A stretch of DNA of 22,725 nt from a virus. Lineage: Duplodnaviria > Heunggongvirae > Uroviricota > Caudoviricetes. Below, piece after piece: positions 1-20,418 of this stretch. A model generated the notes under the pieces. That model did no database searches. It was not told the DNA's origin and was given only the letters and a program-made list of their open reading frames with translations. The translations under genes and the position numbers were made by a program. Position 1 is the first letter of the stretch. Every line of letters begins with the position of its first letter. The stretch is taken from positions 82,891 through 105,615 of IMG/VR virus record IMGVR_UViG_3300017989_002952; one strand, 5' to 3'.

Positions 1-389
1 TGCCATGGAACAAACAATATTTCCTCGACTTGCTTCGGCTCGTGCATCATTACCACGTTTGGTTCATTATCCACACATTTGAGAGCAGATACTCCTTCAC
101 CAGACTTCGAAGACATATCATGGTTTCCATCTATAATCCAAAAGGTAAGCTTAGGATTATAATCTCGTATCCAATCTAATAATACAGATTGAGCCAGAGA
201 ATGTATAATGCTCTTTGTATGGAATGTGTCACCCGCAATAACAATATTCTCAATAGAATGAGCAATCGCATATTCTGCAATGTCTCGTAATACGAAGTTA
301 AGATAATACAATCTCTCAGGCATCCCTTTGATTATAGGATCTTGAGAATACATTGAGAGATGTAAATCTGCTATACCAATAAATTTCAT
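1..389 (-). CDS. Metallophosphoesterase, SbcD/Mre11/T4 gp47-like recombination nuclease subunit (partial, runs off window start)
   Basis: Not in ORF track. Manual translation from ATG at 389: MKFIGIADLHLSMYSQ...IVIAGDTFHTKS...IIDGNHDMS. Shows DxH, GDxFH and GNHD calcineurin-like motifs. ATGA overlap with the upstream gene's stop. Confidence 0.9.
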   Translation of the reverse strand, partial: MKFIGIADLHLSMYSQDPIIKGMPERLYYLNFVLRDIAEYAIAHSIENIVIAGDTFHTKSIIHSLAQSVLLDWIRDYNPKLTFWIIDGNHDMSSKSGEGVSALKCVDNEPNVVMMHEPKQVEEILFVPW

Positions 390-2404: not shown

Positions 2405-2839
2405 TTACTCCGAATATTCCGTCATACTTCCATCATTTTCCCAAACACGAATCCAATCTAGGACCAGCCGAGAATCTATTTTATTGACGTAATTTTGTAT
2501 CTTCAAGAATAAGTATTCCGCAAAGACCTCCGCAGTCGGGTCAACATCTTCATCATACAAAACTCTTGTTTTAAACCCAGCCTTGGTTGAAAATTCTTTC
2601 ACTGTAGTGTCAGAATTATTTACTAAAATAGCATGGTCGAACTGATCCAACATTGGTTCTACAATTGTCTTAATATCTTTAAAGTCAATAACCATGTCAT
2701 TGTCATTCAACACAAACGACGAAATTTGTACCTCAAGTTTTAAGTTGTGACCGTGAATATTTTTACAAAGACCTTTGTGTTTACTCAACCTGTGACCCAC
2801 AGGCACTTTAAAGATTTTTCTAACACGCCATATAGCCAT
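2405..2839 (-). CDS. queD: 6-carboxy-5,6,7,8-tetrahydropterin synthase (QueD/PTPS family)
   Basis: GHRL..HKGLCKNIHGHN (catalytic Cys, Zn-binding His residues), FDHAILVN, PTAE, VWE; RBS AGGAGG. Confidence 0.92.
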   Translation of the reverse strand: MAIWRVRKIFKVPVGHRLSKHKGLCKNIHGHNLKLEVQISSFVLNDNDMVIDFKDIKTIVEPMLDQFDHAILVNNSDTTVKEFSTKAGFKTRVLYDEDVDPTAEVFAEYLFLKIQNYVNKIDSRLVLDWIRVWENDGSMTEYSE

Positions 2840-2842
2840 CCG

Positions 2843-3325
2843 TTACCCTCCTTGACATGGTATTGGGTTAAGACTTCTCCAACCGTCGTCTTTCCCCAAA
2901 AAGAATTTTCTATTACCAATAAACAGAGTGCTTTCACCATTCTCACACCCAGTTTCAATTTTACCTTGAAGTTGATAACATGGAAACATTTGAATATCTC
3001 CATAACTATCTTTTTCACCATAAAAGAACTTTGTCTTGTTGATATAGACAATTGCTCTGCCCTCATCATCAACCAACTGACAATCTATGGTTGGTGTGCC
3101 CTGCACCGTTTCAATCTTTTGTTCTTTGTCAGTACTAGTTGTTACGGTAATTTTTACCGGTGAGTTCTCAGAAACAACTCCAGCAATCTCCTTGATGTTG
3201 GCGACGCCTTCTTTTAATTCTTCCTTATTATCCTTGACGTAATCAAGAACAAGACCAGCTATTGCACCAATAATCACAATAGCGATCAACAACTCGAACA
3301 ACGTAAATCCTTTCTGTGATTTCAT
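2843..3325 (-). CDS. Type IV pilin-like protein with prepilin N-terminal cleavage/methylation signal
   Basis: MKSQKG/FTLFELLIAIVIIGAIAGLVL: basic leader, G-F cleavage site, Glu+5, hydrophobic helix; four Cys in the C-terminal domain. Confidence 0.85.
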   Translation of the reverse strand: MKSQKGFTLFELLIAIVIIGAIAGLVLDYVKDNKEELKEGVANIKEIAGVVSENSPVKITVTTSTDKEQKIETVQGTPTIDCQLVDDEGRAIVYINKTKFFYGEKDSYGDIQMFPCYQLQGKIETGCENGESTLFIGNRKFFLGKDDGWRSLNPIPCQGG

Positions 3326-4665
3326 AACAATTCCTTTCCCGCCTTACTATATTGGTCCAAGACGTATTTTTCGATATTCGTTAAGTTATCTTTTAATTCC
3401 TTCACTTTTTCTTGGAGTTTAGCTGTATCCGTATCAACAGTTAATAATTTTTGAATTGGATACTTGGAAAGAATTTCCTTAACCACGTTCGATCCAACAC
3501 TCGATTGATTTGACAACTCCATTACTTTTTCACTCAGCGGTGCTTGTCTAAATTTTTTGTCAGTCATTAATTTAGATAAAGGACCCCGCAACATGGACAA
3601 AGCAGTCAATTCTTTGATTGACTCGTTGGTCTTATCTATTTCATGATTCAACATTTTGATATTAACACCAGTGAACATTTTATAAGTATTCAATAACATT
3701 TCATCAACAGGCACAACTCGAGTCTGATTATTGGTATCTGTCATTGTTATTTCAAATGTTACCGATCCTGTCGTGGCTTCTTGAATAGCTTTGAGACAAG
3801 CTTTATAAATCTTATCTCGGTTTCTTTGCTTTAAGACACTGAAGACAATCTCAGTTCCGACCTTTTTACTTGAAGAGTCAATATATCCAATATCCTGGTT
3901 ATCTAACATCTTCTTTATGGCTGCTTTATTGAGAATGGATTCAAATCTCCGACCAGGCGGCCAAGATTTCACGATGACTTTGCAAAGAGCAGCGTTGGTT
4001 TTAATAACACCTTTCATTGGTATTGCTGCTTTTCCCGTGGTGAGTAATTTCTCCAAAGTTTTTGCATCAGCTATAATTTGACAATCCGACCTTGGAGATA
4101 TGGTGGGTTTGGTTTTCCTGATCCCAAGCAACCACATGAGTCGCTTATGGAGATCAGAAATTAAATAGGTTGGTATGACAGTCCGATAACCAAAACCAAT
4201 ACCTTGACTATAATCCTTTCCAATAAGACATACAGGAAACATAGTTGGAAGAAAAAGCGGTTCTTTATCATCTTTTGACTCGCTCTCAACCCAAGGCACG
4301 TGTTTGATATACTTAAACATTAAAGAATAAGTTCTCGAACTCAATTTACATTCCGTGTATCTCATAGCCGCAGGTGGAGATGGATCTACTCCAATGGAGC
4401 TTCCAAAATTTCCTTGTTTTTCTAGAAAACCTTGATTAGCCATTTGGACTATCGTTCCATATGTAGTGCTGTGTGGATGGAACCGAGCAATACAAGTTCC
4501 ATCCACCCTTGGACACTTTGCAAATTTCTCTCTTGCGACCAGATACGCAGATAACAATACCCTACGCTCGACTGGTTTTAACCCATCCAGATCTAAAGGA
4601 AATGATCTGAAAGCGTTAATATAGTCACCGTAGCTTTTATACTTCCTTGGTATTATCTGGTCCAT
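3322..4665 (-). CDS. Type IIA DNA topoisomerase A subunit (GyrA/ParC/T4 gp52-like), no C-terminal pinwheel domain
   Basis: DGLKPVERRVL, FHPHS, QGNFGS, AAMRYTE (catalytic Tyr); only 447 aa. Confidence 0.92.
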   Translation of the reverse strand: MDQIIPRKYKSYGDYINAFRSFPLDLDGLKPVERRVLLSAYLVAREKFAKCPRVDGTCIARFHPHSTTYGTIVQMANQGFLEKQGNFGSSIGVDPSPPAAMRYTECKLSSRTYSLMFKYIKHVPWVESESKDDKEPLFLPTMFPVCLIGKDYSQGIGFGYRTVIPTYLISDLHKRLMWLLGIRKTKPTISPRSDCQIIADAKTLEKLLTTGKAAIPMKGVIKTNAALCKVIVKSWPPGRRFESILNKAAIKKMLDNQDIGYIDSSSKKVGTEIVFSVLKQRNRDKIYKACLKAIQEATTGSVTFEITMTDTNNQTRVVPVDEMLLNTYKMFTGVNIKMLNHEIDKTNESIKELTALSMLRGPLSKLMTDKKFRQAPLSEKVMELSNQSSVGSNVVKEILSKYPIQKLLTVDTDTAKLQEKVKELKDNLTNIEKYVLDQYSKAGKELL

Positions 4666-5313: not shown

Positions 5314-7110
5314 TTAAATCTCCCACGTACCTTCCAGGAGTTTGCGCTTTTGGTCTGCTCCAGAGAACAGTTTTGACATCTTTGTAATATTAGACGTCAT
5401 CTTAATTGGCACTAACTTTCTTTTCTTTTCATTAATTGCAACTTCCCCAAGTTGATCTGGATTTAATTCACCCAAACCCTTCAGGCGCACTATTGGTTTA
5501 TTCTCTTTTTTCGCTTTTTGTATTTCGTCATCCGTCCATAACGGAACAAAGTTCTTTTTCTCATTGATTGCATACAATGGAGTCTCAACAAGATAGTAAT
5601 GTCCATTTCTAATAACATCTGGCACCAATGTGGCGAGAATTAACGTCACCAGACAAAAGATATGAGCGCCATCCTCATCGGCATCAGTTGCACATATAAT
5701 TTTGTCATACTTCAAACCAGATATATCAAAGTCAGGACCCACGCCGGTTCCAAGAGCCATAATCATCTCCGAAACCTCTTTATTCTTTATGATATCCTTT
5801 GCATTAACCGCATTGGGAATTTTACCACGTAATGGTAATATAGCATGCTTCTTTGGATCTCGACATTCCACAAATCCACCACCTGCGGAATCCCCTTCCA
5901 CGATAAATAATTCACCATGAGATGATGTGCAATCTCTGAGTTTGGTAAACTTGGTTGATGCTCGTTTACCGTTAGTTTTTGCCTTAACTTTTCTAGCATT
6001 GAGTCTTGCTCGGTATTCCGCAAATCTCTCAAGCAACTCGGTTAATTGTTCAGGGTTCGCCGCGAAATGAGCTTCAATTTTTGCTTTGAGCTGTGTCACA
6101 AACTTACCCAATGTCGCCTTTCTATTTGTCAGCTTATCTTTGGTCTGTCCGGAGAATTTTGGCTCCTTTAAACTGAGCATTAAATATGCTCTTAGACCCA
6201 TAAGACAATCGGCTGGCATAAAGTTAAACCCTAATTTCTTGCCTTTGGCGACGAAGAAATCTCTGAGAATCTCATAGAGGGCGTTAACGTGAGTTCCCCC
6301 GCTGTCGACAGGTAAGAGATTGACTGAGGATAATACTCTCGGTGATACACTACCATTCATCGCATATGTCATCATGACATGGAAAGCTTCAGGTCTTTCC
6401 AAAGCAGAAAACTTCATTAGACCGACGTGTTGTTCTCCGTCATGCATGATATGATCCATAAAATGCTCATCCAACGTCAGTTTAAAAAGTTCTCTTTTGT
6501 CGTCGACATTGAGAATAAATGTAATGTCTTTGCTGAGTTCAGCTGAAGCAGTGCTCAGACGTCTCTTAATCCGTCGAACATCGGGTATGAGATTCTCAAA
6601 GATTTTCTTGGAAGGCTTGAATTCAATTTTGGTTGAGAAGGGTTTTTTATCTGTATAAGGTTTAATAGATTTGCTTTTGAGTTTTCCATTTGCAAATCTG
6701 AAGACTCCGTGTTTATTGTTTCTGTAAACTTCCACCAAGTAATGATCACTCAGAGCAGAGACAGCACACAAACCAACACCGTGCAATCCACTTGCAATTT
6801 CATATGCTGTTTTTCTGTCCTGAAATTTTGCTCCTGAGAATAGTTTTGAGGATATTCTAACTGGAGTATTATCACTTAGCGGAATCCCACGACCATTATC
6901 CAATACGGCGCAAACACCAGTCTTAGTATCAATATTTACTGCTATAATTGACCCATGACCACCTTGAGCCTCATCCAATGCATTATCAAGACATTCCTCT
7001 ACAAGATGTGCAGGTGTTTCAGTGCCTCCAACATACATTCCGGCGTTTAACTGGATATGGGTAATCTCATCCAACACCTGCACATCTTTTGCTGTATATC
7101 TTTTTACCAT
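5314..7110 (-). CDS. Type IIA DNA topoisomerase B subunit (GyrB/ParE-like; GHKL ATPase plus TOPRIM)
   Basis: ECLDNALDE, DNGRGIP, GLHGVGL, EGDSA, PLRGK, DADEDG, KGLGE. Confidence 0.95.
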   Translation of the reverse strand: MVKRYTAKDVQVLDEITHIQLNAGMYVGGTETPAHLVEECLDNALDEAQGGHGSIIAVNIDTKTGVCAVLDNGRGIPLSDNTPVRISSKLFSGAKFQDRKTAYEIASGLHGVGLCAVSALSDHYLVEVYRNNKHGVFRFANGKLKSKSIKPYTDKKPFSTKIEFKPSKKIFENLIPDVRRIKRRLSTASAELSKDITFILNVDDKRELFKLTLDEHFMDHIMHDGEQHVGLMKFSALERPEAFHVMMTYAMNGSVSPRVLSSVNLLPVDSGGTHVNALYEILRDFFVAKGKKLGFNFMPADCLMGLRAYLMLSLKEPKFSGQTKDKLTNRKATLGKFVTQLKAKIEAHFAANPEQLTELLERFAEYRARLNARKVKAKTNGKRASTKFTKLRDCTSSHGELFIVEGDSAGGGFVECRDPKKHAILPLRGKIPNAVNAKDIIKNKEVSEMIMALGTGVGPDFDISGLKYDKIICATDADEDGAHIFCLVTLILATLVPDVIRNGHYYLVETPLYAINEKKNFVPLWTDDEIQKAKKENKPIVRLKGLGELNPDQLGEVAINEKKRKLVPIKMTSNITKMSKLFSGADQKRKLLEGTWEI

Positions 7111-7112
7111 AG

Positions 7113-8396
7113 TTATATCCTCACAATGTAGCCGGTCTTATTTACTTGGTCAATAACACCTTCTTTCTGAATGACCCATATAATTTTCTTAGGAAGCAAT
7201 TGTCTCGAAATTCCGTTAATATTATCACAACCACCATCTGTGAATGCTAACACAACATCCGGTTTTAACTCACGTGCTCGCTCAAGACCCGGAAACAAAG
7301 TTGTTCCGCCTCGACCTTTAACCTCAAAATCAATATCCCGAACCTTCTTACACTCGTATTCTTTTTGAATCTTTGTGTCATTCTCAATAACCGTCGTCTT
7401 ACAATGACGATCATTTTCAATTATGTTCTTGATTCCTTTTAAACCTTCTTTAATATCGTCAGGCGACATACTACCTGAGGTATCAATCAAGACCACAATG
7501 TTGAATGAGAAGTCTCGAGTCCGACCTGGAAACGGCGAGATCTGAGGGAGATTTTGTTCTCCGATTGCAAACACGTAAGTCCGTTTACGATTAATCCTGG
7601 TAAAAGATCTCTTGAATTTACTTAATCTTGAACCTCTCACCAGTTTTCTAATTACTTGATAATATGGAACTTTTGGGGGAGTGAGCGCCTTATCTATCAG
7701 TTCCTTGACAAATCCCGGTAGCTCACCTCGCTTCTTTCGAAAATTCTTCAAAGAATCTTTGATGATTTCTTCGACATAACCGTCAATCTTTCGTGATAAG
7801 GAGCTCACATCAGCAACCTGAGAGATTGCTTTCCCCCAAGACCCATGATCGTCCACCGCATCATAGTCTTCACCAGCACCACCAAACTGCATTTCACCAC
7901 CCATCTGTTTCATTTGATCTCTGACTTCATCTAACAGGTGATGATAATAATGCTCGGTCGACTTACCATCTTCCATATCATAAATGTCAGGAAAACAACC
8001 CGCCCATGGTTTTCCGGCTATCGTTACTTCCCTTGGCATTTCTATGATAGGATTAACAGCACAATCAGCTGCAGTATTCCAAATCCTAGCCTTGACAAAT
8101 TTAATTTCTTTCGAGACCTCGTTTGAGAGTATTCTCAATAATCTGGACACATGTTTATTCAACACATGCATTCCTTCATGTTCAAGAATTTTCTCTATAA
8201 CTAAATCATCTGTTTCTTTCATCAATGCTGGATTAAATATCAGGGAAATGGTACCATCTCGTTCTGGTCCAACCCCCATTATAGATGGAAGAGTATCTGA
8301 AGCAATGCGACGAATCCTACCAAATAGATAACCCCAATAGCTATGTCGTAATGCCATTTTTGCTATCTGTTTTTTGAGGCGTTCGCTTTGATCCAT
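7113..8396 (-). CDS. DUF2201-type putative metallopeptidase plus C-terminal vWA domain protein
   Basis: HEGMH (HExxH), WNTAADCAVN, acidic DDHGSW linker, MIDAS DTSGSM, GRGGT, FTDG. Confidence 0.85.
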   Translation of the reverse strand: MDQSERLKKQIAKMALRHSYWGYLFGRIRRIASDTLPSIMGVGPERDGTISLIFNPALMKETDDLVIEKILEHEGMHVLNKHVSRLLRILSNEVSKEIKFVKARIWNTAADCAVNPIIEMPREVTIAGKPWAGCFPDIYDMEDGKSTEHYYHHLLDEVRDQMKQMGGEMQFGGAGEDYDAVDDHGSWGKAISQVADVSSLSRKIDGYVEEIIKDSLKNFRKKRGELPGFVKELIDKALTPPKVPYYQVIRKLVRGSRLSKFKRSFTRINRKRTYVFAIGEQNLPQISPFPGRTRDFSFNIVVLIDTSGSMSPDDIKEGLKGIKNIIENDRHCKTTVIENDTKIQKEYECKKVRDIDFEVKGRGGTTLFPGLERARELKPDVVLAFTDGGCDNINGISRQLLPKKIIWVIQKEGVIDQVNKTGYIVRI

Positions 8397-11860: not shown

Positions 11861-12181
11861 TTATTCAGCAATAGCCCGAACCGGTTTGACATAATTCAAT
11901 AGGTCAACGACCAAATCTGTTGTCTTAAAAGTATTCAATGCTACTGCAATCGATCTTTTTGCTTCCAAAGGCATTCTCGGATCTGTCAAAGTCATGTGAA
12001 GATTTCCTTGCAGATTAAAAACCATTCCATCTCCTGTCTCTTTGACTTCAACCAAATCTGACCTGTTTATTGTAAGTAAAATTGTGTGTTTTTTGATCGT
12101 AATTGTTTTATCTGGGACCTGTTCCTTCTTTGGTAACTTCTTGTCATTCTTTTTTGATACTCTAGTCACTGAAAGATCCAT
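11861..12181 (-). CDS. Hypothetical protein, last gene of RNAP module
   Basis: 106-aa ORF, RBS GGGG, 20-nt overlap with upstream gene. Confidence 0.7.
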   Translation of the reverse strand: MDLSVTRVSKKNDKKLPKKEQVPDKTITIKKHTILLTINRSDLVEVKETGDGMVFNLQGNLHMTLTDPRMPLEAKRSIAVALNTFKTTDLVVDLLNYVKPVRAIAE

Positions 12182-12761
12182 TCTTTAATTCCCCCTCTCT
12201 GATCTTCGCTTCGATCATCATTTTCGACTTTTCCGTAAGATTTACAAACAAACTAATCATATTGTCTTTATTATATGTTCTCAAAAAATCTGAAATTATC
12301 TGAGGTAAAAAGTGGGATTCAATCTGTTCATCAATTACCAACAAGATTCTATCTGCATTTGACAAGCAAAAATCTCGGATATCAGACCGCAAGTCGATAT
12401 TCATAAATTTCCAAACATCGGCAATGAAATCAACATATTCATACTCTATGAATTTTACAAATTTAAAAATAGATGCGATTTCATTCGGTGTCGGAACCTC
12501 AGGAAGATGTAACTCAATCTCGTATACTTCTTCAACTTTGTCTACCAGATCACGAGCAAGTTCTCTTCTGTCGTCAATATTATAATCATTATTTAAGATA
12601 TTTTGATAATGAGCTTTGAAGTCAGGAGTACCTACTGAGTTAATCAAATCAATAAAATCATATCGTTTAAAAGCTATTTCGTCTGGATATATTTCATCGT
12701 ATTCTTCGCTTTCTGGCTCTTCGACAGTTCCTAATAAAGCTTTCAAACTTTCTTCAGACAT
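12162..12761 (-). CDS. Acidic hypothetical protein downstream of RNAP beta
   Basis: 199-aa ORF, RBS AAGGAG, 9 nt after beta stop; D/E-rich, likely helical. Confidence 0.8.
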   Translation of the reverse strand: MSEESLKALLGTVEEPESEEYDEIYPDEIAFKRYDFIDLINSVGTPDFKAHYQNILNNDYNIDDRRELARDLVDKVEEVYEIELHLPEVPTPNEIASIFKFVKFIEYEYVDFIADVWKFMNIDLRSDIRDFCLSNADRILLVIDEQIESHFLPQIISDFLRTYNKDNMISLFVNLTEKSKMMIEAKIREGELKNGSFSD

Positions 12762-12770
12762 GATATCTCC

Positions 12771-15700
12771 TTACTTTGAAAGAATTAATGCTGTCATATA
12801 ACTTGAGAGCAAATCTCTAGCTGGTGATCCTTTAGCAATACGAAATTCAGCATTGCCCTTTTGGACAATATCAGCAATAATCTCATTTTTTGTCACATGA
12901 TCATCTGACAATGGACCCATTAACTCCGATAGCAGGGTTGGGCAGTTATAAGATATAAATGCGTATGTGTCCATTTCACCCAATCTCTGACCACCTTCTC
13001 GCCTTTTACCTGATGTTGGTTGTTTTGTTTTACCAGTAACAGGTCCTGTGGATCGAGCATGAGTTTTCTCTTCACTGATATGTTCAAGTTTATTGATATA
13101 CATATATCCAACAGGAACAGGTTTCTTTGTTTTTGTATTATATTCTGGTAATGTAAGTTTGTATCCCGTTTTTAATCCAAGAAATTTTATCACTTCATAT
13201 ATATTTTGGTGTGAAGGTGATTTAAATGGTGGCACCATAACAGGAACAAAACCAGAAGCCTGAACCTGCTTCATAAAAGCCTTAAATTTGGCATCAGACA
13301 ATTTTGCAAAATTTGTCAGAAATGTTCCACTAAAATCTTGTTTTGGGCTTCCATCTAATCTTGGAAATACTTTTCTAAAAAGAGTAAGTACTTGAGCTTT
13401 TGTTTTCATTTTTAAAACTTTGTTGCCCAATTCTTTAGAAATCAAACCTGTATATAGTTCAAGCAACTGTCCAACATTCATACGACCAATAATACCAATA
13501 GGATTTACTACAATATCAACTCGGTCGCCCCACGGAGTTCTTGGCATCAATTCTTCTTTTTCAATTAGACCAATAGTGCCCTTTGCTCCAAATCTATTAG
13601 TAAGCTTGTCTCCAATACCAATTCTCAATTCTTGCTCAATTTTAAATCTGACCAACACACCTTTTATTGGTGTTCCTCGAACAGTAACTTTATCTTTAGC
13701 TGATAAACCATGAATACGTCTGGTTCTTCGAATTAGTTTTGTCAGCTCTGGAAATTTATCATCTGCAGTATTTGAGAAGACCTCAATATCAACAATTGTG
13801 CCACCTGGACTCTTTTTGATCATTTGTCCGCCAGCATAATCAACACCTTCTTCATCCTCATCTATACCAAGTAATTCCTCCAGTTCGCCCATTGTCTTAC
13901 GTAAAATTGGTTGACCTTTTTCAACCTTCTCACCAATTTGACTGATAAACAGCAGTCGATCTTTTTCAGAAATTAATACTTCTTCAAAAATCCCATGCAA
14001 AGAAGTCAGGGTGTCGTCACGCACTAAACGATCACTAATAGCAATACTATCCTCAAAGTTATAACCTTTGTAAGGCATAACGGCTACTAATAATGTTCGC
14101 CCAAGAGCAATACTGCCATCAGCCACACAACTACCCTCAGCCAAGATTTGATTGGTTTTAACTGTTTGACCAACTTTTACTTTGGATTGAAAAACACTTA
14201 ACGTATCTTTACCAGATCCAGATCTTAAATGGACAGGAATTATTGAAATGTTTTGTTTTCCACCTTTTGAACACTGAATTGTAATATTATCTCCAGTAAC
14301 AGCGGTCACTTTGCCCGCACACGGACTCTTTTTAACGAAATTCTCCGATAACACATTTGTCAGTAATGATTCATAACCAGATTGAACTACAGGAGGTTCT
14401 GGATCCTTTAAAGGAACAACCTGTTTTTGTTGTGCTGAAAGCATGATAACCCTTGCTCCATCATTATTCTCAACAAATGGAGTGAGGGTTGTAGTTGTGG
14501 ACAATACTCCTGATCCCTCTTTATCTGAAAATTCTTTTGGTAGAAATAATCCCCTCGCAGAAGTCACAAAAGCGTTTACAGTCAAGTGTTGTACAATACC
14601 AATATTTCCACCTTCTGGTGTATCAAGAGGGTCAATATTTCCAAAATAACTATTATGAACACTTCGAGCATTAGTTTGGATTGCTCTCTTATCTGGAATG
14701 CCTCCAACATTCTTTCCAACGGGCGATGTCCTTGTCATCGTAGACATCTCTTCTATTGGGTTGGAATATTCCATATCTTGAACAATTTCTAATTGGTTAA
14801 AGTCAAGAAGAACTTTCTTTTGGTTAATTTTAAATTCAGCATCCTCATTACCAGCTAATCTTTGTTCTCTATAATCTGTATGTGCTGCCTGTACTTGCTT
14901 TTGAACCAAATGGACAATAGTTTCAGAACCTCTGATTCTTTGGTTGGTTAAATCATTTCTATCTTGGACAAATCCCTCAATTACCTTTGTTGCCATATAA
15001 TACATAATATCTTTCAAGTTTGAGGGTAATTGTTTATTGACTAATACTTGCTTTGCAACAGGATCAACCATATTTTCCAACATATTATTAATTAACCAAG
15101 TAGTGTTTACTCTGCCTGTCATGGCAACAAGCAGACTGTCAAAATATTCTTTCGTACCAAATTTCTCTTTTATATCATATGTGTGAACTTTGGCTTTACC
15201 AAAGGAGTCGCAAAACTCCTCTTTTAGTTCAGTATCTACCTTGGTAAATCTGATATATGATTGTCCAATATTGAAGATGAATTTTTCACCTTTCTTTGGT
15301 TTGGTGTCTGTAATTTCATAACCCAATCCATAATCTTTCAATATTTGCTCAAAACCAAAACTGTAAAATGAGATAATCGATAGAGGCAACTTATATGAAC
15401 CAAAGTAGGCTTCAAGATACTTTAAACGTTTTGTCCGCTTACTATGAATTCTGAACTTGGAATATGAACTCTCAAAACGAGACTCATAGGGAGCTGGAAA
15501 TGTAATCGGACATAACACAAGTTGATTAATAAGACACTTCTTTTTACCATAAACTCTAAACGTGCCTGTATTTGGATCAATTTTCGGTATGTCAATTTGG
15601 ACTACGTGAGGCTTTCCGTCTTTATCATTTAGAGTTATTTGAGCTGTTTCAATGTCAGATTTATTAAGCTCTCCCTTTGCATGAGCTTTCTTAATAACTT

Positions 15701-16862
15701 CAACTTTCTTAACAAATAACGGCTGTTCTTTTGATTCCAAAACCTTGAATGAATTTTTCAAATCCTTTTTAAGATTCTTTTGGAAGTCAACTTGTCTTTT
15801 CTGAAAAAGGTGTTCTGGCGTCTTTTTATCGACAGCTTTAGATGGGTTACTTGTAGCAACAAAAACTTCGTCAGTTGATGAAACCGGTTCCTCTGGTTTT
15901 AACATTTCATCAGCATAGTTTTTGTCAACTGCAATGAGAGCTTTACCTAAATTTTTTGGTGCAATTGCTCTTGCCATTGCTGTGGATTTTTGAGGATCAC
16001 CATTCCCTTTTGTAAGGATAGCAGCAATTGCAACTCTTTTAATATCATCACTACTAGCCGCCTTCGACGCGATTTCATCCCGTTTTTTGGGTGAAACCTC
16101 CATGTAATCGGCTATCGCACCTCGAATCGCCGCCTTATTAGCAGGAGTAACCTGGTCACCAATTTCATCCATTACTTCTTTTGTTGTCTCACCAACTTCC
16201 ATTTCTACTTCTGCCTCAACGTGACGGAGCTTAATGGATTTGAGAATTTGATACACTCTTGTGAATTGAAATTCTCTGTCTTTGATAAGAAGTCTATGAC
16301 GTGACCCATTCTCTCCAACTAAGGTCAAAATCATATGATCAAAAGAAAATTCCATATCTTTGAGTTTTCTCAAAACGGGGAATATTTTACGATTAAGTAG
16401 AGACGGCATTTCCTTTGAGATATTAACAGAATACATCAATACTTTTTGGTAATGAGGGGGATATCTATCAAATGCTCTTTGGAGCATATTCATTAAAAGA
16501 AAACCAGCTCTTTGTCTATAATTTGAGACTTTATATGTAGTATCAATAGCGGACATATATTTTGTCACATCGTAGAAGATATTTTGTCCAATCGGGACTT
16601 TCTGGTTTTCATTATAGGCGTATAACCCGTATGTTCGATATAGCTTTTTTGTATCTGGAGCTAACCATGTCCTTGGAACCTTCGTTCTGGGTACAACAAC
16701 ATAACGAGCATCAATAGATCTAATTCCGAGATGTGGATAATCATCAACCAACAAAGAATTCTCAGAAAAATAGACAATGACAAATGGTTCTGCTGCCTTT
16801 TGCGGGAAACGTATCCCTTTGACTAGATGTGTGTATTGTCGTAACCCTTTAAATTGAATCAT
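12771..16862 (-). CDS. rpoB: Viral multi-subunit RNA polymerase beta-like subunit with long N-terminal extension
   Basis: IPKIDPNTGTFRVYG, VHNSYFGNIDPLDTPEGGNIG, GYNFEDS, GDKLTNRFGAKG, KLEH, GGQRLGEMD. Confidence 0.95.
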   Translation of the reverse strand: MIQFKGLRQYTHLVKGIRFPQKAAEPFVIVYFSENSLLVDDYPHLGIRSIDARYVVVPRTKVPRTWLAPDTKKLYRTYGLYAYNENQKVPIGQNIFYDVTKYMSAIDTTYKVSNYRQRAGFLLMNMLQRAFDRYPPHYQKVLMYSVNISKEMPSLLNRKIFPVLRKLKDMEFSFDHMILTLVGENGSRHRLLIKDREFQFTRVYQILKSIKLRHVEAEVEMEVGETTKEVMDEIGDQVTPANKAAIRGAIADYMEVSPKKRDEIASKAASSDDIKRVAIAAILTKGNGDPQKSTAMARAIAPKNLGKALIAVDKNYADEMLKPEEPVSSTDEVFVATSNPSKAVDKKTPEHLFQKRQVDFQKNLKKDLKNSFKVLESKEQPLFVKKVEVIKKAHAKGELNKSDIETAQITLNDKDGKPHVVQIDIPKIDPNTGTFRVYGKKKCLINQLVLCPITFPAPYESRFESSYSKFRIHSKRTKRLKYLEAYFGSYKLPLSIISFYSFGFEQILKDYGLGYEITDTKPKKGEKFIFNIGQSYIRFTKVDTELKEEFCDSFGKAKVHTYDIKEKFGTKEYFDSLLVAMTGRVNTTWLINNMLENMVDPVAKQVLVNKQLPSNLKDIMYYMATKVIEGFVQDRNDLTNQRIRGSETIVHLVQKQVQAAHTDYREQRLAGNEDAEFKINQKKVLLDFNQLEIVQDMEYSNPIEEMSTMTRTSPVGKNVGGIPDKRAIQTNARSVHNSYFGNIDPLDTPEGGNIGIVQHLTVNAFVTSARGLFLPKEFSDKEGSGVLSTTTTLTPFVENNDGARVIMLSAQQKQVVPLKDPEPPVVQSGYESLLTNVLSENFVKKSPCAGKVTAVTGDNITIQCSKGGKQNISIIPVHLRSGSGKDTLSVFQSKVKVGQTVKTNQILAEGSCVADGSIALGRTLLVAVMPYKGYNFEDSIAISDRLVRDDTLTSLHGIFEEVLISEKDRLLFISQIGEKVEKGQPILRKTMGELEELLGIDEDEEGVDYAGGQMIKKSPGGTIVDIEVFSNTADDKFPELTKLIRRTRRIHGLSAKDKVTVRGTPIKGVLVRFKIEQELRIGIGDKLTNRFGAKGTIGLIEKEELMPRTPWGDRVDIVVNPIGIIGRMNVGQLLELYTGLISKELGNKVLKMKTKAQVLTLFRKVFPRLDGSPKQDFSGTFLTNFAKLSDAKFKAFMKQVQASGFVPVMVPPFKSPSHQNIYEVIKFLGLKTGYKLTLPEYNTKTKKPVPVGYMYINKLEHISEEKTHARSTGPVTGKTKQPTSGKRREGGQRLGEMDTYAFISYNCPTLLSELMGPLSDDHVTKNEIIADIVQKGNAEFRIAKGSPARDLLSSYMTALILSK

Positions 16863-19800
16863 TATTTCTTTTCCTCAACCAATGTTCCTGTAAGAACTTT
16901 CTCTAGAATGCTTGGTTCTACCTCTTCCTCGGAAATTAAACCATTACGGATTGCCTCTCCAATATTTTCAAAAGCAAGACCTTGTAGGAAACCGCTAGAA
17001 AATACGACCTTTTTAATATTGACAAGAACAGGATCCCAAGTATTTCCTAATCTAGCTGGTATACTCAAGTTATTTTTATCTCGAATACAATTACTTAGCA
17101 AGCATTCCAAATGAACCATATCCATATCTGCTCCAATTTCAGCATAAACACGGACAAGTTTCAAAATGAGATGGTCAACACTTTTGAATACTTCTTTGCC
17201 TGCAAGCAAACGTTCCACGTATAATGCTTGCTCTTTTAATTCCAAAGCTTCAAGAGGAATTTCTAAAATAACACTTCCGGGAATATAACGGCAATTAATT
17301 GACTTTTTCTTTATAAGCTCGAATTCTTGTTTTTTGATATCAACAGGATAGTCCAGAACCATATTGAACATTTTGTCTTCAAATTCGATTCTTGAGGATA
17401 GACCACTCAACCAAATACTATCCTCTTTTATTTCAATATTTTTGCTTTCAGTATAATCCATTAGATCAATTAGTAATTCACAACCTTTTTTACAGACAAG
17501 AGATCCACCCTCTTGTACAATATATTTCTTAAGAGTGGACATATCTAAATCAGCAATTGGATCATTATTAATAATGTCTTGGAGCATATCCTTTTGTTTG
17601 ATTGTGACAGCTCCGCCTGTGTGGAAGGTGCGCATGATTAACTGTGTGCCCTTCTCACCAATGACCTGCGCGGCCAGTACTCCTACATATGGTGTCCGAT
17701 GTCGTTGTAAGAGTCTACCATAGCAAGTAAGACATAATTTTCTGCTACGACAATAGATTGGACTTCTTAATTGAATCACATCACCAGGCTTGAATTTCTC
17801 TGGGTCAAATTCTGTTACTTTACCTCTATAAATATGAAATCGACCGCTCAATCTACTAATGATATCTTTTGTCAATTTTAATGAAACGGTTTTCTTTGTT
17901 CCACAGTCTCTGAGATGTGTATGGGCTTCTAAATTATTCAATACAAATGCTAGTTTTCTGGACATATAACCTGTAGTCGCAGTATTGATAACTCGGTCAA
18001 TAATTCCTTTTCTAGCTCCTGTTGAGGAGTTAAAATACTCGGTTGGACTTAAACCATCTGCAAACGATGCGGAAATAACAGGGAGGATATTTCCTTCTGA
18101 GTCTGCAATGATACCTTTTGCAACCAGAATCTGCATAGGCTGACCCCAACCTTTTGTTGATCCTGATTCTGTAAGATCGTATAAACCAGAATCTTCAAGC
18201 TTTTTCTTGACAATAGTATACATTTGTTCTAATATCGCCATAGCCTCATCTGTATCTTTGCCTTTTAATTGTTTCTTTAGTTGGTAGACCTTTGCAGGTA
18301 CTTCAAAATCATCCAGCGTAATACTCGACCCCATAATTGTTGCAAATTTAAATCCGAGTTTCTCCATACGAGATATACTCTCTCTTGCAATCTCTCCCCC
18401 ATATGTATCAACCATTTTGGAAATGATACTATTTGCAACCTTTTTTGTTGCTCTCTGATTCACAAACGGGTAATTCCTTGGAAGACAACTATTAAACAAT
18501 GCTTTTCCCATGGTCGTATTAACACCACGAAATTTGACAGCGATATATGGGTCGGTTGCTTTTTCCAAATCTTCTGGAGAAACCTCTTTTGGAGAATTTT
18601 TTGGTTTAACATCTTTTGTGATTGAATATAATCCAACCATCATTTCTTTAGACAAAGAAAATGTGATTGCAGTTGATGATGAACCGGATTCTGCTCTGAG
18701 CATTTTTGCCTTGGCTTCCTCTTGTGCTTCATCTGTTAATGGATGATATAACGCCATTGCATCACCATCAAAGTCTGCATTATGTCCGCCAACCTGCATT
18801 GTACACATTTGAATTGTATTGCCTGTAATCAAGACAGGTTTATATGCTCGCACAGATTCAGCTTGTAATGCCGGGTCACGTTTAGCTAAAACAACTCTAT
18901 CCATCATAGCTACTTCTGTAGCTTCATAAAATATCTTATACAGTGTGTCTGGTATTTTATCACCAGATTTAATTGCTTTTAATACTTTACGAACACTGTC
19001 CACAGATAGTTCAAGCTCGTTAAATGCTTTAATCTCATTAGATAACATTTCCTTATCAATTCGACCAGCATATAATAACTGGTGTAAAATAAACGGCTCA
19101 AACAGTCCCACAGCCATTCTAAACGGAACACCAATTTCATTAACCTTGAGGTCAGGACCTGGTGTAATAACCGCTCTACCGCTAAAGTCTACACGTTTAG
19201 AAAGGAGTTGACTCCTAATAATACCTTGTTTTTTAGCAACCTTAGTATGAATATACTTATGGTGTTCAACAATTGCGGTTTGTAAAGAATAGTTTAAAAT
19301 ATCAAAAAGTGGACCAGAACCAGATGCACTTCTCACTTGTAGAGCTTTTCTCATAATGTCCATATAGACATCATTCATGGTATCAATAGTCCATTGGTCA
19401 TCTTCATCTTTATATGCTGGTCTATGCTCTGGTGGTATGACAGGCAATCTACTTAAAAAGAGTGTTCCTGTTTTATATGCATTTTGAATGACTTTATTTA
19501 GTTTTGTGCGGTCTGTTGTTTCTTCCCTGAATTTGATTTTTGGAAACATTTTAATAAATGCTGCAATACCTGTTACACCATTTTCATCCTCTACTAGCGC
19601 GCCACTAGCATCTAGACTAAAATTCTTCTCTGTTGAAATAAACTTGACTATTTTACCATTGAGGCGTATCAGAATTTTTAATGCCTCCGGATGGATGATT
19701 TTCGCATGCAAATCAATATACGAAAATGTGCTTCTTCTTTCTTTATCTGTGATTCCGAAAATTGATTCAGAAAACAGACCACCAACATGGAACTCGCCTG

Positions 19801-19876
19801 CTCTAGTAAAATATTCAGTTGTTGTAACAGGTTTGAGTTTCTTCGTAAACTCATCCATATTCAGGAATCGAATCAT
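16862..19876 (-). CDS. rpoC: Viral multi-subunit RNA polymerase beta'-like (catalytic) subunit
   Basis: NADFDGD catalytic motif (18761-18781), LPVIPPEHRP, KRVDFSGRAVI, bridge helix GARKG..TGYMSRKL, trigger loop GTQLIMRTFHTGG, second Zn site DCGT...CRSRKLCLTC. Confidence 0.96.
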   Translation of the reverse strand: MIRFLNMDEFTKKLKPVTTTEYFTRAGEFHVGGLFSESIFGITDKERRSTFSYIDLHAKIIHPEALKILIRLNGKIVKFISTEKNFSLDASGALVEDENGVTGIAAFIKMFPKIKFREETTDRTKLNKVIQNAYKTGTLFLSRLPVIPPEHRPAYKDEDDQWTIDTMNDVYMDIMRKALQVRSASGSGPLFDILNYSLQTAIVEHHKYIHTKVAKKQGIIRSQLLSKRVDFSGRAVITPGPDLKVNEIGVPFRMAVGLFEPFILHQLLYAGRIDKEMLSNEIKAFNELELSVDSVRKVLKAIKSGDKIPDTLYKIFYEATEVAMMDRVVLAKRDPALQAESVRAYKPVLITGNTIQMCTMQVGGHNADFDGDAMALYHPLTDEAQEEAKAKMLRAESGSSSTAITFSLSKEMMVGLYSITKDVKPKNSPKEVSPEDLEKATDPYIAVKFRGVNTTMGKALFNSCLPRNYPFVNQRATKKVANSIISKMVDTYGGEIARESISRMEKLGFKFATIMGSSITLDDFEVPAKVYQLKKQLKGKDTDEAMAILEQMYTIVKKKLEDSGLYDLTESGSTKGWGQPMQILVAKGIIADSEGNILPVISASFADGLSPTEYFNSSTGARKGIIDRVINTATTGYMSRKLAFVLNNLEAHTHLRDCGTKKTVSLKLTKDIISRLSGRFHIYRGKVTEFDPEKFKPGDVIQLRSPIYCRSRKLCLTCYGRLLQRHRTPYVGVLAAQVIGEKGTQLIMRTFHTGGAVTIKQKDMLQDIINNDPIADLDMSTLKKYIVQEGGSLVCKKGCELLIDLMDYTESKNIEIKEDSIWLSGLSSRIEFEDKMFNMVLDYPVDIKKQEFELIKKKSINCRYIPGSVILEIPLEALELKEQALYVERLLAGKEVFKSVDHLILKLVRVYAEIGADMDMVHLECLLSNCIRDKNNLSIPARLGNTWDPVLVNIKKVVFSSGFLQGLAFENIGEAIRNGLISEEEVEPSILEKVLTGTLVEEKK

Positions 19877-20316
19877 TATTTAAGACCTTTTAAATAACTA
19901 GACATAGCATTAAAATCTTTTGTGACGTTAGCTTTTCTTGCTGCTTCTGGAGCTGGGGTTGGTATACTCTTAACCAAACGAGCCTTGATACGTCTCAACT
20001 GCCCTAACGTGAGATCAATTTTATCGGCATCAATTTCAGGTTCATTTTTCAATCTCTGAGCGAGTTTCAATGAAAAGTCAACCATTTGTGGATCGGCAAT
20101 CCCCGACACGTTACAAATTGGAAAAGGAATATCACGACCAATAGGATTTGTCATATTGATAAAGCATTTTGGATGTTTTTCTTGTTGAGCCTTTCTCATA
20201 TCTCGATCAAGATACCATTTGAGATCTGAGTGCATATCAAGAGGACTTATGAGTTTATAAGCCTTTCTGAGTAACTCGTCCAGGATTTGAAAGCTTTCTT
20301 CTAGCTTAGTTGTCAT
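19876..20316 (-). CDS. Hypothetical protein translationally coupled to beta'
   Basis: 146-aa ORF, RBS GGGAG, TAATG stop/start overlap with beta'. Confidence 0.8.
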   Translation of the reverse strand: MTTKLEESFQILDELLRKAYKLISPLDMHSDLKWYLDRDMRKAQQEKHPKCFINMTNPIGRDIPFPICNVSGIADPQMVDFSLKLAQRLKNEPEIDADKIDLTLGQLRRIKARLVKSIPTPAPEAARKANVTKDFNAMSSYLKGLK

Positions 20317-20350: not shown

Positions 20351-20386
20351 TATTTGTTCTAATCTCCGAACAAAAAATGACGGAAA

Positions 20387-20414
20387 ACGTCCACCCCCTT
20401 TCGAGAGTGGACGT
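20387..20414 (-). terminator. Intrinsic terminator with GAAA tetraloop
   Basis: Minus strand ACGUCCACUCUC-GAAA-GGGGGUGGACGU: 12 bp with two G.U wobbles, followed by UUU and then UUUUUU; 4 nt after a stop codon. Confidence 0.75.
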
Positions 20415-20418
20415 CCTT

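What the first reader, a model, noticed from the sequence alone, without database searches (positions are those of the whole stretch)
15828..16862. ~345-aa unknown N-terminal extension fused to RNAP beta
The first clear beta motif (IPKIDPNTGTFRVYGKKKCLINQL) is at aa ~425-448, versus ~125-150 in E. coli RpoB (recalled). The extra part appears bipartite: a mixed alpha/beta segment (aa 1-212) and an Ala/Lys-rich helical segment (aa ~215-345). Inference: a fused accessory subunit, such as an assembly platform replacing alpha, an initiation factor or an RNA-processing domain.
Basis: partly seen in the sequence, partly recalled or inferred. Interest (0 to 1): 0.7.

Follow-up and report, generated by a model that had tools for sequence, protein, structure and literature searches.

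The report
Head-linked N-terminal module on phage RNAP β
One of the two RNA polymerases of this uncultured giant phage has about 350 extra residues in front of its β subunit; copies of the same folded domain are encoded as separate genes in the head-assembly module and RNA polymerase operon of relatives, so it is probably the handle that loads this polymerase into the virion.

Summary
The 1363-aa β (window 12771-16862, minus strand) carries about 349 residues ahead of the first β-homologous residue. That is 340 more than the phage's own second β, and about 310 more than bacterial β.

The extension has three parts:
- a compact α/β domain, aa 1-212 (AF2 pLDDT 94.5);
- a helical bundle, aa 220-319;
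- a floppy linker, aa 320-349.

It is conserved and always fused in at least 119 near-full-length homologues. Pairwise identity in the domain is 0.50, against 0.57-0.62 in the β core.

New findings:
- All six phage records of this clade that I searched, the window's included, carry two β/β' sets. Only the long β has the extension.
- The 212-aa domain also exists as free genes, which arose at least four times independently. One group lies between the T4-type portal and prohead protease genes. The others lie between β' and β.
- The nearest folds are the N-termini of phiR1-37 g099 and a PBS1 protein. A profile also matches the Staphylococcus jumbo-phage β, whose orthologue was detected in virions.

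Best reading (about 0.5): this is a virion-packaged RNAP, and the extension is its head-incorporation module, possibly removed by the prohead protease. The α-like platform idea is not supported, though a polymerase-intrinsic role remains possible. No proteomic or biochemical evidence exists. A core-region tree does not place the long β with known virion β subunits.

The parts
12771..16862 (-). Long β subunit gene (P0001, 1363 aa) of the first RNAP set
   Evidence: ORF list and translation. Pfam Rpb2_3 at aa 697-766, Rpb2_6 at 849-1288, Rpb2_7 at 1290-1358. Bacterial β in the PDB at E 1e-70.
16227..16862 (-). N-terminal α/β domain, aa 1-212. Invariant among 27 close homologues: Y31 E34 N35 D51 P58 T60 P63 N94 D98 Y115 R116 R118 Y144.
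   Evidence: Alignments A1 and A3. AF2 pLDDT 94.5, pTM 0.90. Free-standing homologues of 205-262 aa. BFVD fold matches to jumbo-phage β-like N-termini.
15906..16226 (-). Acidic connector (aa 213-219, consensus I-D-T-E-E-E) and helical-bundle domain (aa 220-319)
   Evidence: AF2 model of aa 200-560 shows six helices at pLDDT about 88-91. Column counts over 119 homologues. Only generic helical matches in the PDB.
15816..15905 (-). Low-confidence flexible linker, aa 320-349, between the extension and the β core
   Evidence: pLDDT 60-67. β-fold alignment starts at about aa 350. The conserved KSPEHxFxKRxIDF motif starts at aa 347.
15906..15914 (-). A317-D318-E319, a candidate (inferred, untested) prohead-protease site of the A/S-x-E type at the end of the helical bundle
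   Evidence: Column counts A53/S32, D79, E73/D26/Q19 of 119. A-x-E and T-x-E cleavage motifs in giant-phage heads are reported in PMC5694885.
12771..15815 (-). β core, aa 350-1363, homologous to cellular and phage β from its first residues
16862..19876 (-). β' gene of the same set (P0002, 1004 aa, NADFDGD). It is translationally coupled to β. Its C-terminal aa 782-995 match a PHROG annotated as virion structural protein.
   Evidence: phrog_2926 at E 1.2e-5, which the second-set β' does not hit. TAATG overlap.
16873..16876 (-). Shine-Dalgarno GAGG, 10 nt upstream of the β ATG
   Evidence: Sequence read.
12162..12761 (-). 199-aa gene directly downstream of the long β. It is a conserved neighbour: 198-201 aa in L061, L062, L080 and L094. 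No known family; possible further subunit.
   Evidence: Unrelated to the N-domain.
19876..20316 (-). 146-aa gene whose stop overlaps the β' start; first gene of the apparent operon, after a terminator-like hairpin at 20384-20417

Best explanation
The window comes from a T4-like jumbo phage that encodes two complete, unsplit β'/β RNA polymerases. I read the long-β enzyme as the virion (packaged and ejected) polymerase, and its first ~349 residues as a head-incorporation module.

Proposed mechanism. The 212-aa α/β domain binds a component of the assembling prohead core. That component is either a free paralogue of the same domain, or portal, scaffold or core proteins. The helical bundle acts as a spacer. 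The floppy linker (aa 320-349) lets the core enzyme either be released by the S77 prohead protease or stay tethered.

Shown:
- the extension exists, is folded and is conserved;
- only one of the two β paralogues has it;
- free paralogues lie in the head-morphogenesis module or in the RNAP operon;
- the same fold heads the virion-associated β subunit phiR1-37 g099, and a profile matches the N-terminus of the Staphylococcus jumbo-phage β whose orthologue was found in virions.

Inferred: packaging, the binding partner, and cleavage.
For: 1. Two RNAP sets. The window's own contig and five relatives, two of them complete with terminal repeats (277 and 312 kb), each have a long β (1361-1384 aa) next to a ~1000-aa β' reading frame (split to 782-784 aa in two relatives). 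Each also has a short β (~1000-1050 aa) next to a ~900-aa β'. The short β lacks the extension; the motif offset is 340 aa. This is the layout of phiKZ-type phages, which have virion and non-virion RNAPs (PMC7598289, PMC7824862).

2. Head-module paralogues. In G025 a 210-aa free copy is 39% identical to the same genome's β N-domain (E 3e-40). It lies between Portal_T4 and Peptidase_S77, upstream of the scaffold-sized genes and Gp23. L003 and L076 show the same slot, and the shorter contig L077 shows the same gene order without Pfam calls.

3. Fold relatives.
- Foldseek on BFVD gives as best hits a 1393-aa protein (E 3e-6, TMq 0.63), a PBS1 921-aa protein and a β-like phage protein.
- I equate the first hit with phiR1-37 g099 by its length alone. 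g099 is a 1393-aa protein annotated as RNAP β and 'phage structural protein'.
- hhalign of the domain profile hits the very N-terminus of g099 (E 2e-4).
- It also hits the N-terminus of the Staphylococcus phage SA1 1418-aa β (189 columns, E 1.7e-4).
- The UFV_DC4 orthologue of that protein was detected in virions by LC-MS (PMC10638138).

4. Precedent. The 201phi2-1 virion β loses a 275-aa N-terminal propeptide at TFE-275. SPN3US keeps the equivalent region. Long propeptides are argued to target proteins to the giant-phage prohead (PMC5694885).

5. PHROG pattern.
- The long β/β' pair hits profiles of 1424, 225, 539, 433 and 241 positions (phrog_3148, 3233, 2986, 2962, 2926).
- These lengths fit the masses of the five SPN3US virion-RNAP subunits.
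- The short pair does not hit 3233 or 2926 and hits 3148 and 2986 more weakly.

6. Purifying selection on the domain is close to that on the β core.
Against: - No proteomic, expression-timing or biochemical data exist for this clade.
- A tree of the shared β core puts known jumbo-phage virion β subunits in their own clade (99/98). The window's long β is left in an unresolved group with its short paralogue, the second β genes of the same cultured phages and bacterial β. Orthology to known virion β is therefore not shown.
- The N-domain was not detected in OBP (a phiKZ relative), JD-Fnp1 or LPJP1 β N-termini.
- Most free copies lie in the RNAP operon between β' and β, not in the head module. That fits a polymerase-intrinsic role equally well.
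- In complete genomes G001 and G002 the domain occurs only once, so no free head partner exists there.
- The hhalign hits have only about 50% probability against single sequences.
- The UFV_DC4 virion detection rests on one peptide.
- Candidate cleavage motifs lie in Glu-rich sequence and may be chance.
Confidence: 0.5

Rival explanations
1. Polymerase-intrinsic accessory module. The N-domain, alone or paired with a free paralogue, is a subunit-like part of this particular RNAP. It would act as an assembly or stability platform (a functional analogue of the α dimer), or as a promoter-specificity or initiation factor for the class of promoters this enzyme reads. It would have nothing to do with packaging.
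For: - At least six distinct loci encode a free copy between β' and β, or directly upstream of β, in the same operon.
- The free copies arose independently at least four times from the local β domain, which suggests that two copies work together.
- Jumbo-phage RNAPs lack α, ω and σ homologues (PMC7598289), so some other part must supply specificity.
- β' and β are translationally coupled.
Against: - The paralogous short β in the same genome has no such module.
- Complete genomes G001 and G002 have a single copy.
- One clade of free copies sits in the head-morphogenesis module between portal and prohead protease, which this reading does not explain.
- No DNA-binding, σ-like or α-NTD-like fold was returned, though that absence is inconclusive.
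Confidence: 0.3
2. Enzymatic or nucleotide-binding domain. The N-domain is a diverged P-loop-kinase-like (zeta-toxin / polynucleotide-kinase / SRP-GTPase-like) three-layer α/β domain. It would modify RNA 5' ends, nucleotides or host targets after ejection, comparable to the HD domain fused to the virion β of Bacillus jumbo phages.
For: - The best PDB structural neighbours are zeta/PezT toxins, SRP54/FtsY/FlhF GTPase domains and polynucleotide kinases, at Z 5.5-7.7. The ESM Atlas returns zeta-toxin/AAA_33-like clusters at TM 0.46.
- A set of invariant polar residues (E34, N35, D51, N94, D98, R116, R118) could form a site.
- An HD-domain fusion to virion β is known (PMC7598289).
Against: - There is no Walker A motif. 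The loop after strand 1 reads F-S-E-N-S. The position resembling Walker B is N in the window protein.
- No Pfam or PHROG family hit.
- Z values of 7-8 are what models without a true match typically reach (note).
- An enzymatic role explains neither the head-module paralogues nor their repeated duplication.
Confidence: 0.08
3. Annotation artefact. The true β starts at an internal codon near aa 346, and the upstream reading frame is a separate or non-functional piece.
For: In one relative (G003) the frame breaks at about aa 315, giving a 315-aa ORF and a 1003-aa ORF.
Against: - 119 homologues keep one uninterrupted frame of 1358-1372 aa.
- The start has a Shine-Dalgarno and is coupled to the β' stop.
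- The domain is conserved at 0.50 pairwise identity.
- The G003 break follows a lysine run and looks like a frameshift, with no start codon or ribosome-binding site for the second part.
Confidence: 0.02

Closest known systems
Long N-terminal region or propeptide of phiKZ-type virion RNAP β (201phi2-1 gp274/273, SPN3US gp241, phiKZ gp178)
   Same: - Several hundred extra residues lie ahead of the β homology, on the virion enzyme only.
- The phage has a second RNAP without them.
- In 201phi2-1 the region is removed by the T4-gp21-type prohead protease at TFE-275; in SPN3US it stays on (PMC5694885).
- The window's clade also encodes an S77 protease.
   Different: - Those β subunits are split into pieces and have ~700 residues before the first β motif, against 425 here.
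- No sequence similarity to the phiKZ relative OBP was detected.
- The core tree does not join the window's β to them.
- Packaging is shown there and only inferred here.
N-terminus of phiR1-37 g099 and of the Staphylococcus jumbo-phage β (SA1 1418 aa; UFV_DC4 gp67); PBS1 921-aa protein
   Same: - The same α/β fold at the extreme N-terminus of a β-like subunit: BFVD E 3e-6 / TMq 0.63 and E 6e-5 / TMq 0.55; hhalign E about 2e-4.
- Shared motifs: FSENS against FNDNS, and NIFYDxTKY against PVFADLSKY and NYIVDSTKF.
- g099 is annotated as a structural protein.
- UFV_DC4 gp67 was detected in virions.
   Different: - Identity is only 14-19%.
- In those proteins another ~450 residues follow before β homology.
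- The identity of the PBS1 protein was not checked.
- The first BFVD hit is equated with g099 by length only.
T4 capsid-targeting sequence of internal proteins and Alt, and the prohead-core genes 67/68 between genes 20 and 21
   Same: - An N-terminal element that brings cargo into the prohead and is cut off by the gp21 protease (described in PMC5694885).
- The free N-domain paralogues occupy the slot between portal and protease. T4 keeps its core genes 67 and 68 there (T4 gene order is from general knowledge).
   Different: - The T4 sequence is 10-20 residues, not a 212-aa folded domain plus a helical bundle.
- No sequence relation.
- Cleavage is not shown here.
mReC lineage: Caudovirales with unsplit, deep-branching β and β' (Weinheimer and Aylward 2020, PMC7481178)
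   Same: Uncultured large phages from aquatic and other metagenomes with whole β and β' genes and T4-like structural genes. The window's clade fits this description.
   Different: - Membership was not tested sequence by sequence.
- The words 'virion', 'N-terminal' and 'copies' do not occur in that paper's main text. Two enzyme sets and the β extension therefore seem not to have been described there.
Other ways of delivering a phage RNAP: the N4 virion RNAP and the P23-45 tape-measure-fused RNAP (bioRxiv 10.1101/2022.12.01.518664)
   Same: An RNAP is made part of the virion by fusion to, or existence as, a packaged or ejected protein, so that early genes are read without the host enzyme.
   Different: Different polymerase families, or a different fusion partner (tail tape measure). 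Known to me only from the abstract listed and from general knowledge.

Membership tests
Jumbo-phage virion RNAP (vRNAP) β subunit | The phage encodes two multisubunit RNAP sets, one of them virion-specific | tested here: met
   There are two β and two β' loci in the window's own contig and in five relatives, two of them complete.
Jumbo-phage virion RNAP (vRNAP) β subunit | The protein is present in purified virions | not testable with these tools
   The clade is uncultured. Only distant fold relatives (phiR1-37 g099, UFV_DC4 gp67) are reported in virions.
Jumbo-phage virion RNAP (vRNAP) β subunit | A long N-terminal region ahead of the β homology that the non-virion paralogue lacks | tested here: met
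   About 349 aa extra. The paralogue P0231 starts 340 aa later relative to the shared motif.
Jumbo-phage virion RNAP (vRNAP) β subunit | Groups with known virion β subunits in a tree of the catalytic core | tested here: not met
   OBP, phiR1-37, SA1, LPJP1 and JD-Fnp1 large β subunits form a clade (99/98) that excludes the window's long β. The rest of the tree is unresolved. The vRNAP clade includes some very long end branches, so attraction is possible.
Jumbo-phage virion RNAP (vRNAP) β subunit | β and β' are split into five polypeptides | tested here: not met
   β (1363 aa) and β' (1004 aa) are whole here. Some relatives have split forms: β pieces of ~880 aa and β' reading frames of 776-784 aa.
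Bacterial RNAP α subunit N-terminal domain / RPB3-RPB11 assembly platform | α-NTD fold | tested here: inconclusive
   This fold is not among the Foldseek PDB, VIA wide or Atlas matches. A family that is not listed is not excluded.
Bacterial RNAP α subunit N-terminal domain / RPB3-RPB11 assembly platform | Required by every core enzyme of the organism, as a dimer contacting β and β' | tested here: not met
   The second β/β' set of the same phage has no such domain. Complete genomes hold a single copy. Contacts with the core could not be tested.
P-loop NTPase / kinase (zeta toxin, PNK, SRP GTPase) | Walker A motif GxxxxGK[ST] after strand 1 | tested here: not met
   The loop reads (Y)FSENS and is nearly invariant. 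No Pfam hit.
P-loop NTPase / kinase (zeta toxin, PNK, SRP GTPase) | Three-layer α/β/α fold with the matching strand order | tested here: inconclusive
   Z 5.5-7.7, rmsd 3.4-6.3 Å over 141-162 residues. That is within the range of models that have no true match.
Capsid-targeting propeptide cleaved by an S77 prohead protease | N-terminal position on a head-internal protein, in a phage with a gp21-type protease | tested here: met
   The position is N-terminal. Peptidase_S77 is found in all five relatives searched, above Pfam's cut-off in four. It is absent from the 105-kb fragment that holds the window. Head-internal location itself is not shown.
Capsid-targeting propeptide cleaved by an S77 prohead protease | Cleavage after Glu at a conserved motif | not testable with these tools
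   Only candidate motifs are available: A/S-D-E at 317-319 and T/A/S-E-E at 215-217 of the consensus.

The most novel reading that the evidence does not exclude
The 212-aa domain is a previously undefined, widely distributed 'virion-RNAP β N-terminal domain'. It would work by self-association. A free copy built into the prohead core, or carried by the enzyme, would recruit the β-fused copy. A whole two-subunit, roughly 270-kDa polymerase would thus be loaded into a T4-type head and released by the prohead protease at the floppy linker. That would be a modular, transferable packaging handle for very large cargo. It would also show that the virion/non-virion RNAP division of labour exists outside the phiKZ/AR9 group, in T4-like phages with unsplit subunits.
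Probability: 0.3. Interest if true: 0.75.

Novelty: new variant of a known kind. Interest (0 to 1): 0.6.

Why it matters
- How giant phages load a multi-subunit RNA polymerase into the head and eject it is an open question. For phiKZ-type phages only 'a long N-terminal region, sometimes cleaved' is known.
- This work defines a compact, confidently folded domain, its boundaries and its invariant residues.
- Nature has repeatedly made free copies of the domain and placed them either in the head-assembly module or in the polymerase operon. That gives a concrete, testable handle: pull-downs, packaging of reporter fusions, and mapping of the mature N-terminus.
- It also indicates that a large clade of uncultured T4-like jumbo phages with unsplit β/β' carries two polymerases. 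I did not find this stated in the paper that described such phages.
- If the packaging role holds, the domain could be used to load foreign proteins into large capsids.

Tried and rejected
- Pfam and PHROG scans of the extension and of eight free copies found no family.
- Foldseek against the PDB gave only aminotransferase noise at TM below 0.3.
- ESM Atlas by shape and by features gave nothing specific.
- Complex prediction of two copies of the N-domain gave no verdict (score 0.00, controls not run). It is neither for nor against self-association.
- hhalign of the domain profile found nothing against the N-termini of OBP, JD-Fnp1 and LPJP1 β, nor against the 199-aa downstream gene.
- tblastn of the phiR1-37 and SA1 N-termini found only their own close relatives.
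- A profile-based locus search with the mixed alignment failed for lack of a conserved stretch, and the single-protein search gave only weak partial hits.
- I searched for a true split, meaning a β without the domain plus a free gene. None was found. The G003 case is a frameshift after a lysine run, and the L078 free copy precedes a β that has its own domain.
- I tried to derive the protease's cleavage motif from the major capsid protein N-terminus. Several L-x-E and S-x-E candidates appeared and none was decisive.
- The core-β tree meant to show orthology with known virion β did not show it.
- The 341-aa gene in the portal-protease slot of G002 is a papain-type peptidase, not a diverged N-domain.
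Full report
**What is there**

All genes of the window lie on the minus strand. ORF 16862-19876 encodes a 1004-aa β' with NADFDGD. ORF 12771-16862 encodes a 1363-aa β. The two genes overlap as TAATG, and a GAGG lies 10 nt before the β ATG. The window is the end of a 105.6-kb IMG/VR contig that CheckV estimates to be 26% complete.

**Checking the observation**

Pfam finds β domains only from aa 697 onward and nothing in aa 1-480. Three observations locate the start of β homology:
- phmmer against PDB chains aligns β from about aa 688 onward. It gives a weak match (score -2 bits, not significant alone) of aa 424-455 to bacterial β 114-144.
- A second β in the same contig (P0231, 1016 aa) carries the equivalent motif at aa 85, an offset of 340 residues.
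- An AlphaFold2 model of aa 200-560 (pLDDT 82) aligns from about aa 350 with the first residues of Mycobacterium β B1/B2 (4kbj_A, residues -1..262) and of the AR9 non-virion β-N subunit (7s00_c, residues 28-255). Z is middling and rmsd large because the domains are oriented differently.

A conserved motif KSPEHxFxKRxIDF starts at aa 347. The extension does not belong to the β lobes.

**Anatomy**

- Aa 1-212 form one compact α/β domain (80-sequence alignment, pLDDT 94.5, pTM 0.90).
- Aa 213-219 are an acidic connector. In 119 homologues E218 is present 111 times.
- Aa 220-319 form a helical bundle at pLDDT about 88-91.
- Aa 320-349 have low confidence.

Mean pairwise identity over 119 near-full-length homologues:

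| Region | Identity |
|---|---|
| N-domain | 0.50 |
| Two linker parts | 0.32 and 0.39 |
| β proper | 0.57-0.62 |

**Distribution**

A word-indexed search with aa 1-420 found 189 clusters. All but one of the 120 listed are 1344-1372 aa, and they cover 95-100% of the N-terminus. An exhaustive HMMER search of 1.8 billion representatives found 109 hits. These were full-length β proteins, some with LAGLIDADG inteins. There were also ~880-aa pieces that may be split N-parts or contig-end fragments (their contigs were not checked), plus shorter fragments. The last group was proteins of 205-262 aa that match only aa 1-212 and have their own termini.

**Context of the free copies**

1. Head module.
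   - In L003 and L076 the order is Portal_T4, a 161-200-aa protein, the free N-domain, Peptidase_S77, two small proteins, then Gp23. The shorter contig L077 shows the same gene order without Pfam calls.
   - In the 118-kb record G025 the same head-module copy coexists with a 1375-aa β that carries the fused domain. The two are 39% identical (E 3e-40).
2. RNAP operon. In L062, L064/65, L078, L091/92, L093 and L094 a free copy lies between β' and β or directly upstream of β. Wherever β was readable it still had its own domain.
3. Fused only. In the complete genomes G001 (312 kb) and G002 (277 kb) the domain occurs once, in β. G002 has a papain-type peptidase in the portal-protease slot.

A tree of N-domains shows that the free copies arose at least four times from the local β domain. 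The head-module copies form one clade (support 100) next to the β domain of G025 (a quick search, with SH-aLRT support only).

**Two polymerases**

The window's own contig and five relatives each carry two sets:
- a long β of 1361-1384 aa next to a ~1000-aa β' reading frame, split to 782-784 aa in two relatives;
- a short β of ~1000-1050 aa next to a ~900-aa β'.

The PHROG matches also differ between the sets. The long pair hits phrog_3148, 3233, 2986, 2962 and 2926, the last annotated as virion structural protein. The profile lengths fit the masses listed for the five SPN3US virion-RNAP subunits. The short pair misses 3233 and 2926 and prefers 3295, 2987 and 3015. This is pattern evidence, because I could not list the PHROG members.

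**Fold relatives**

Against solved structures the N-domain has only middling matches to P-loop-kinase-like folds (Z up to 7.7), and it has no Walker A motif. Results against predicted viral structures and by profile comparison:
- The best BFVD hit is a 1393-aa protein (E 3e-6, TMq 0.63). I equate it, by length only, with phiR1-37 g099, which is annotated as RNAP β and as a structural protein.
- The next hits are a PBS1 protein and a β-like phage protein.
- Profile comparison independently aligns the domain with the first ~150 residues of g099 (E 2e-4).
- It also aligns with residues 29-239 of the Staphylococcus phage SA1 1418-aa β (E 1.7e-4). The UFV_DC4 orthologue of that protein was found in virions, from one peptide.
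- OBP, JD-Fnp1 and LPJP1 gave nothing.

**Literature**

- In 201phi2-1 the virion β loses a 275-residue N-terminal propeptide at TFE-275. SPN3US keeps the region. Long propeptides are proposed to target proteins into giant-phage proheads (PMC5694885).
- Jumbo-phage RNAPs lack α, ω and σ (PMC7598289).
- Iyer et al. note a unique N-terminal region on the phage β-DPBB proteins (PMC7824862).
- The paper describing phages with unsplit deep-branching β/β' does not contain the words virion, N-terminal or copies (PMC7481178).

**Interpretation**

The simplest account that covers all observations is that the long enzyme is the packaged polymerase and the extension is its head-incorporation module. That account covers an extension on one of two paralogous enzymes and a domain shared with the N-termini of virion β subunits. 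It also covers the paralogues in the head-morphogenesis module and in the RNAP operon, and a T4-type prohead protease in the clade. The floppy linker after A317-D318-E319 is a plausible but unproven cleavage region.

**Weak points**

- The core-β tree does not join the long β to known virion β subunits.
- Most free copies sit in the RNAP operon.
- There are no experimental data.

I therefore give the packaging reading about 0.5. A polymerase-intrinsic role (assembly or promoter specificity) gets about 0.3, an enzymatic role about 0.08, and an annotation artefact about 0.02.

**Novelty**

Long N-terminal regions on virion β subunits are known. Four things appear to be undescribed:
- this defined domain;
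- its repeated release as a free gene;
- its placement in the head module;
- the two-polymerase layout in T4-like phages with unsplit subunits.

I therefore class the finding as a new variant of a known kind.

Noticed in passing
G000:C1:61184-68620 (outside the window; locus L070 6400-12618, minus strand): There is a second, shorter RNAP set in the same contig: β' of 902 aa followed by β of 1016 aa (P0231). Its catalytic motif GNRHGNKGVIS is more bacterial-like than the long β's TNRFGAKGTIG.
   Followed up: partly
window 12162-12761 (-) and 19876-20316 (-): A 199-aa gene follows the long β, and a 146-aa gene overlaps the β' start. The 199-aa gene is a fixed neighbour of the long β in four relatives (198-201 aa). 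Neither has a known family. They could be further subunits of this polymerase.
   Followed up: partly
L059 8986-10011 (G002, a complete 277-kb relative): A 341-aa papain-family cysteine peptidase (Peptidase_C1, E 1e-17) is encoded between the T4-type portal and the S77 prohead protease. Other relatives keep the free N-domain copy in that slot. A second, unrelated protease in a head module is unusual.
   Followed up: no
proteins P0131 (1742 aa) and P0180 (1702 aa): These long-β homologues are enlarged by LAGLIDADG-type insertions inside Rpb2 domain 6. They are probably inteins.
   Followed up: no
L061 3500-4733 (G003): The long β frame breaks after a lysine run at about aa 315, giving a 315-aa ORF and a 1003-aa ORF. 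This is probably an assembly or homopolymer frameshift, not a natural split.
   Followed up: partly
proteins P0127, P0139, P0153, P0156, P0176, P0192; G001 and G004 β'; L078: Some β homologues are only ~870-907 aa and end after Rpb2 domain 3; they may be split N-parts or contig-end fragments. Some β' reading frames are 776-784 aa. In L078 a Zn-ribbon gene and a Pyr_excise gene lie between the β' piece and a 220-aa ORF.
   Followed up: no
window 16862-17527 (-), β' aa 782-995: The C-terminal quarter of the long-set β' matches phrog_2926, annotated as virion structural protein (E 1.2e-5). The short-set β' does not.
   Followed up: partly
window 20384-20417 (-): A strong terminator-like hairpin (15 pairs followed by a T run) lies between the 481-aa gene and the 146-aa/β'/β operon.
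   Followed up: no
free copies P0198, P0222, P0229 (C-termini): The free N-domain copies encoded between β' and β carry an extra acidic tail that ends in a conserved amphipathic motif (K-x-S-I-L-x-x-I-x-K). The head-module copies lack it. It may be a binding peptide.
   Followed up: no
window 2405-2839, 3322-4665, 5314-7110, 7113-8396 (all -): Neighbouring genes: a QueD-like 6-pyruvoyl-tetrahydropterin synthase, the two topoisomerase II subunits (T4 gp52 and gp39 type) and an HNH endonuclease. These fit a T4-like replication module.
   Followed up: no
'phages' collection records AFYI01000006.1, AGRM01000005.1, OR844998.1: Some records in the phage collection look like bacterial DNA. The two Salmonella contigs are annotated bacterial DNA with rpoB. 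The unverified 'Staphylococcus phage SA 1306 Kay' record has no annotation but holds a 1185-aa β that groups with Salmonella rpoB. They gave the top tblastn hits to β and should not be read as phage relatives.
   Followed up: partly
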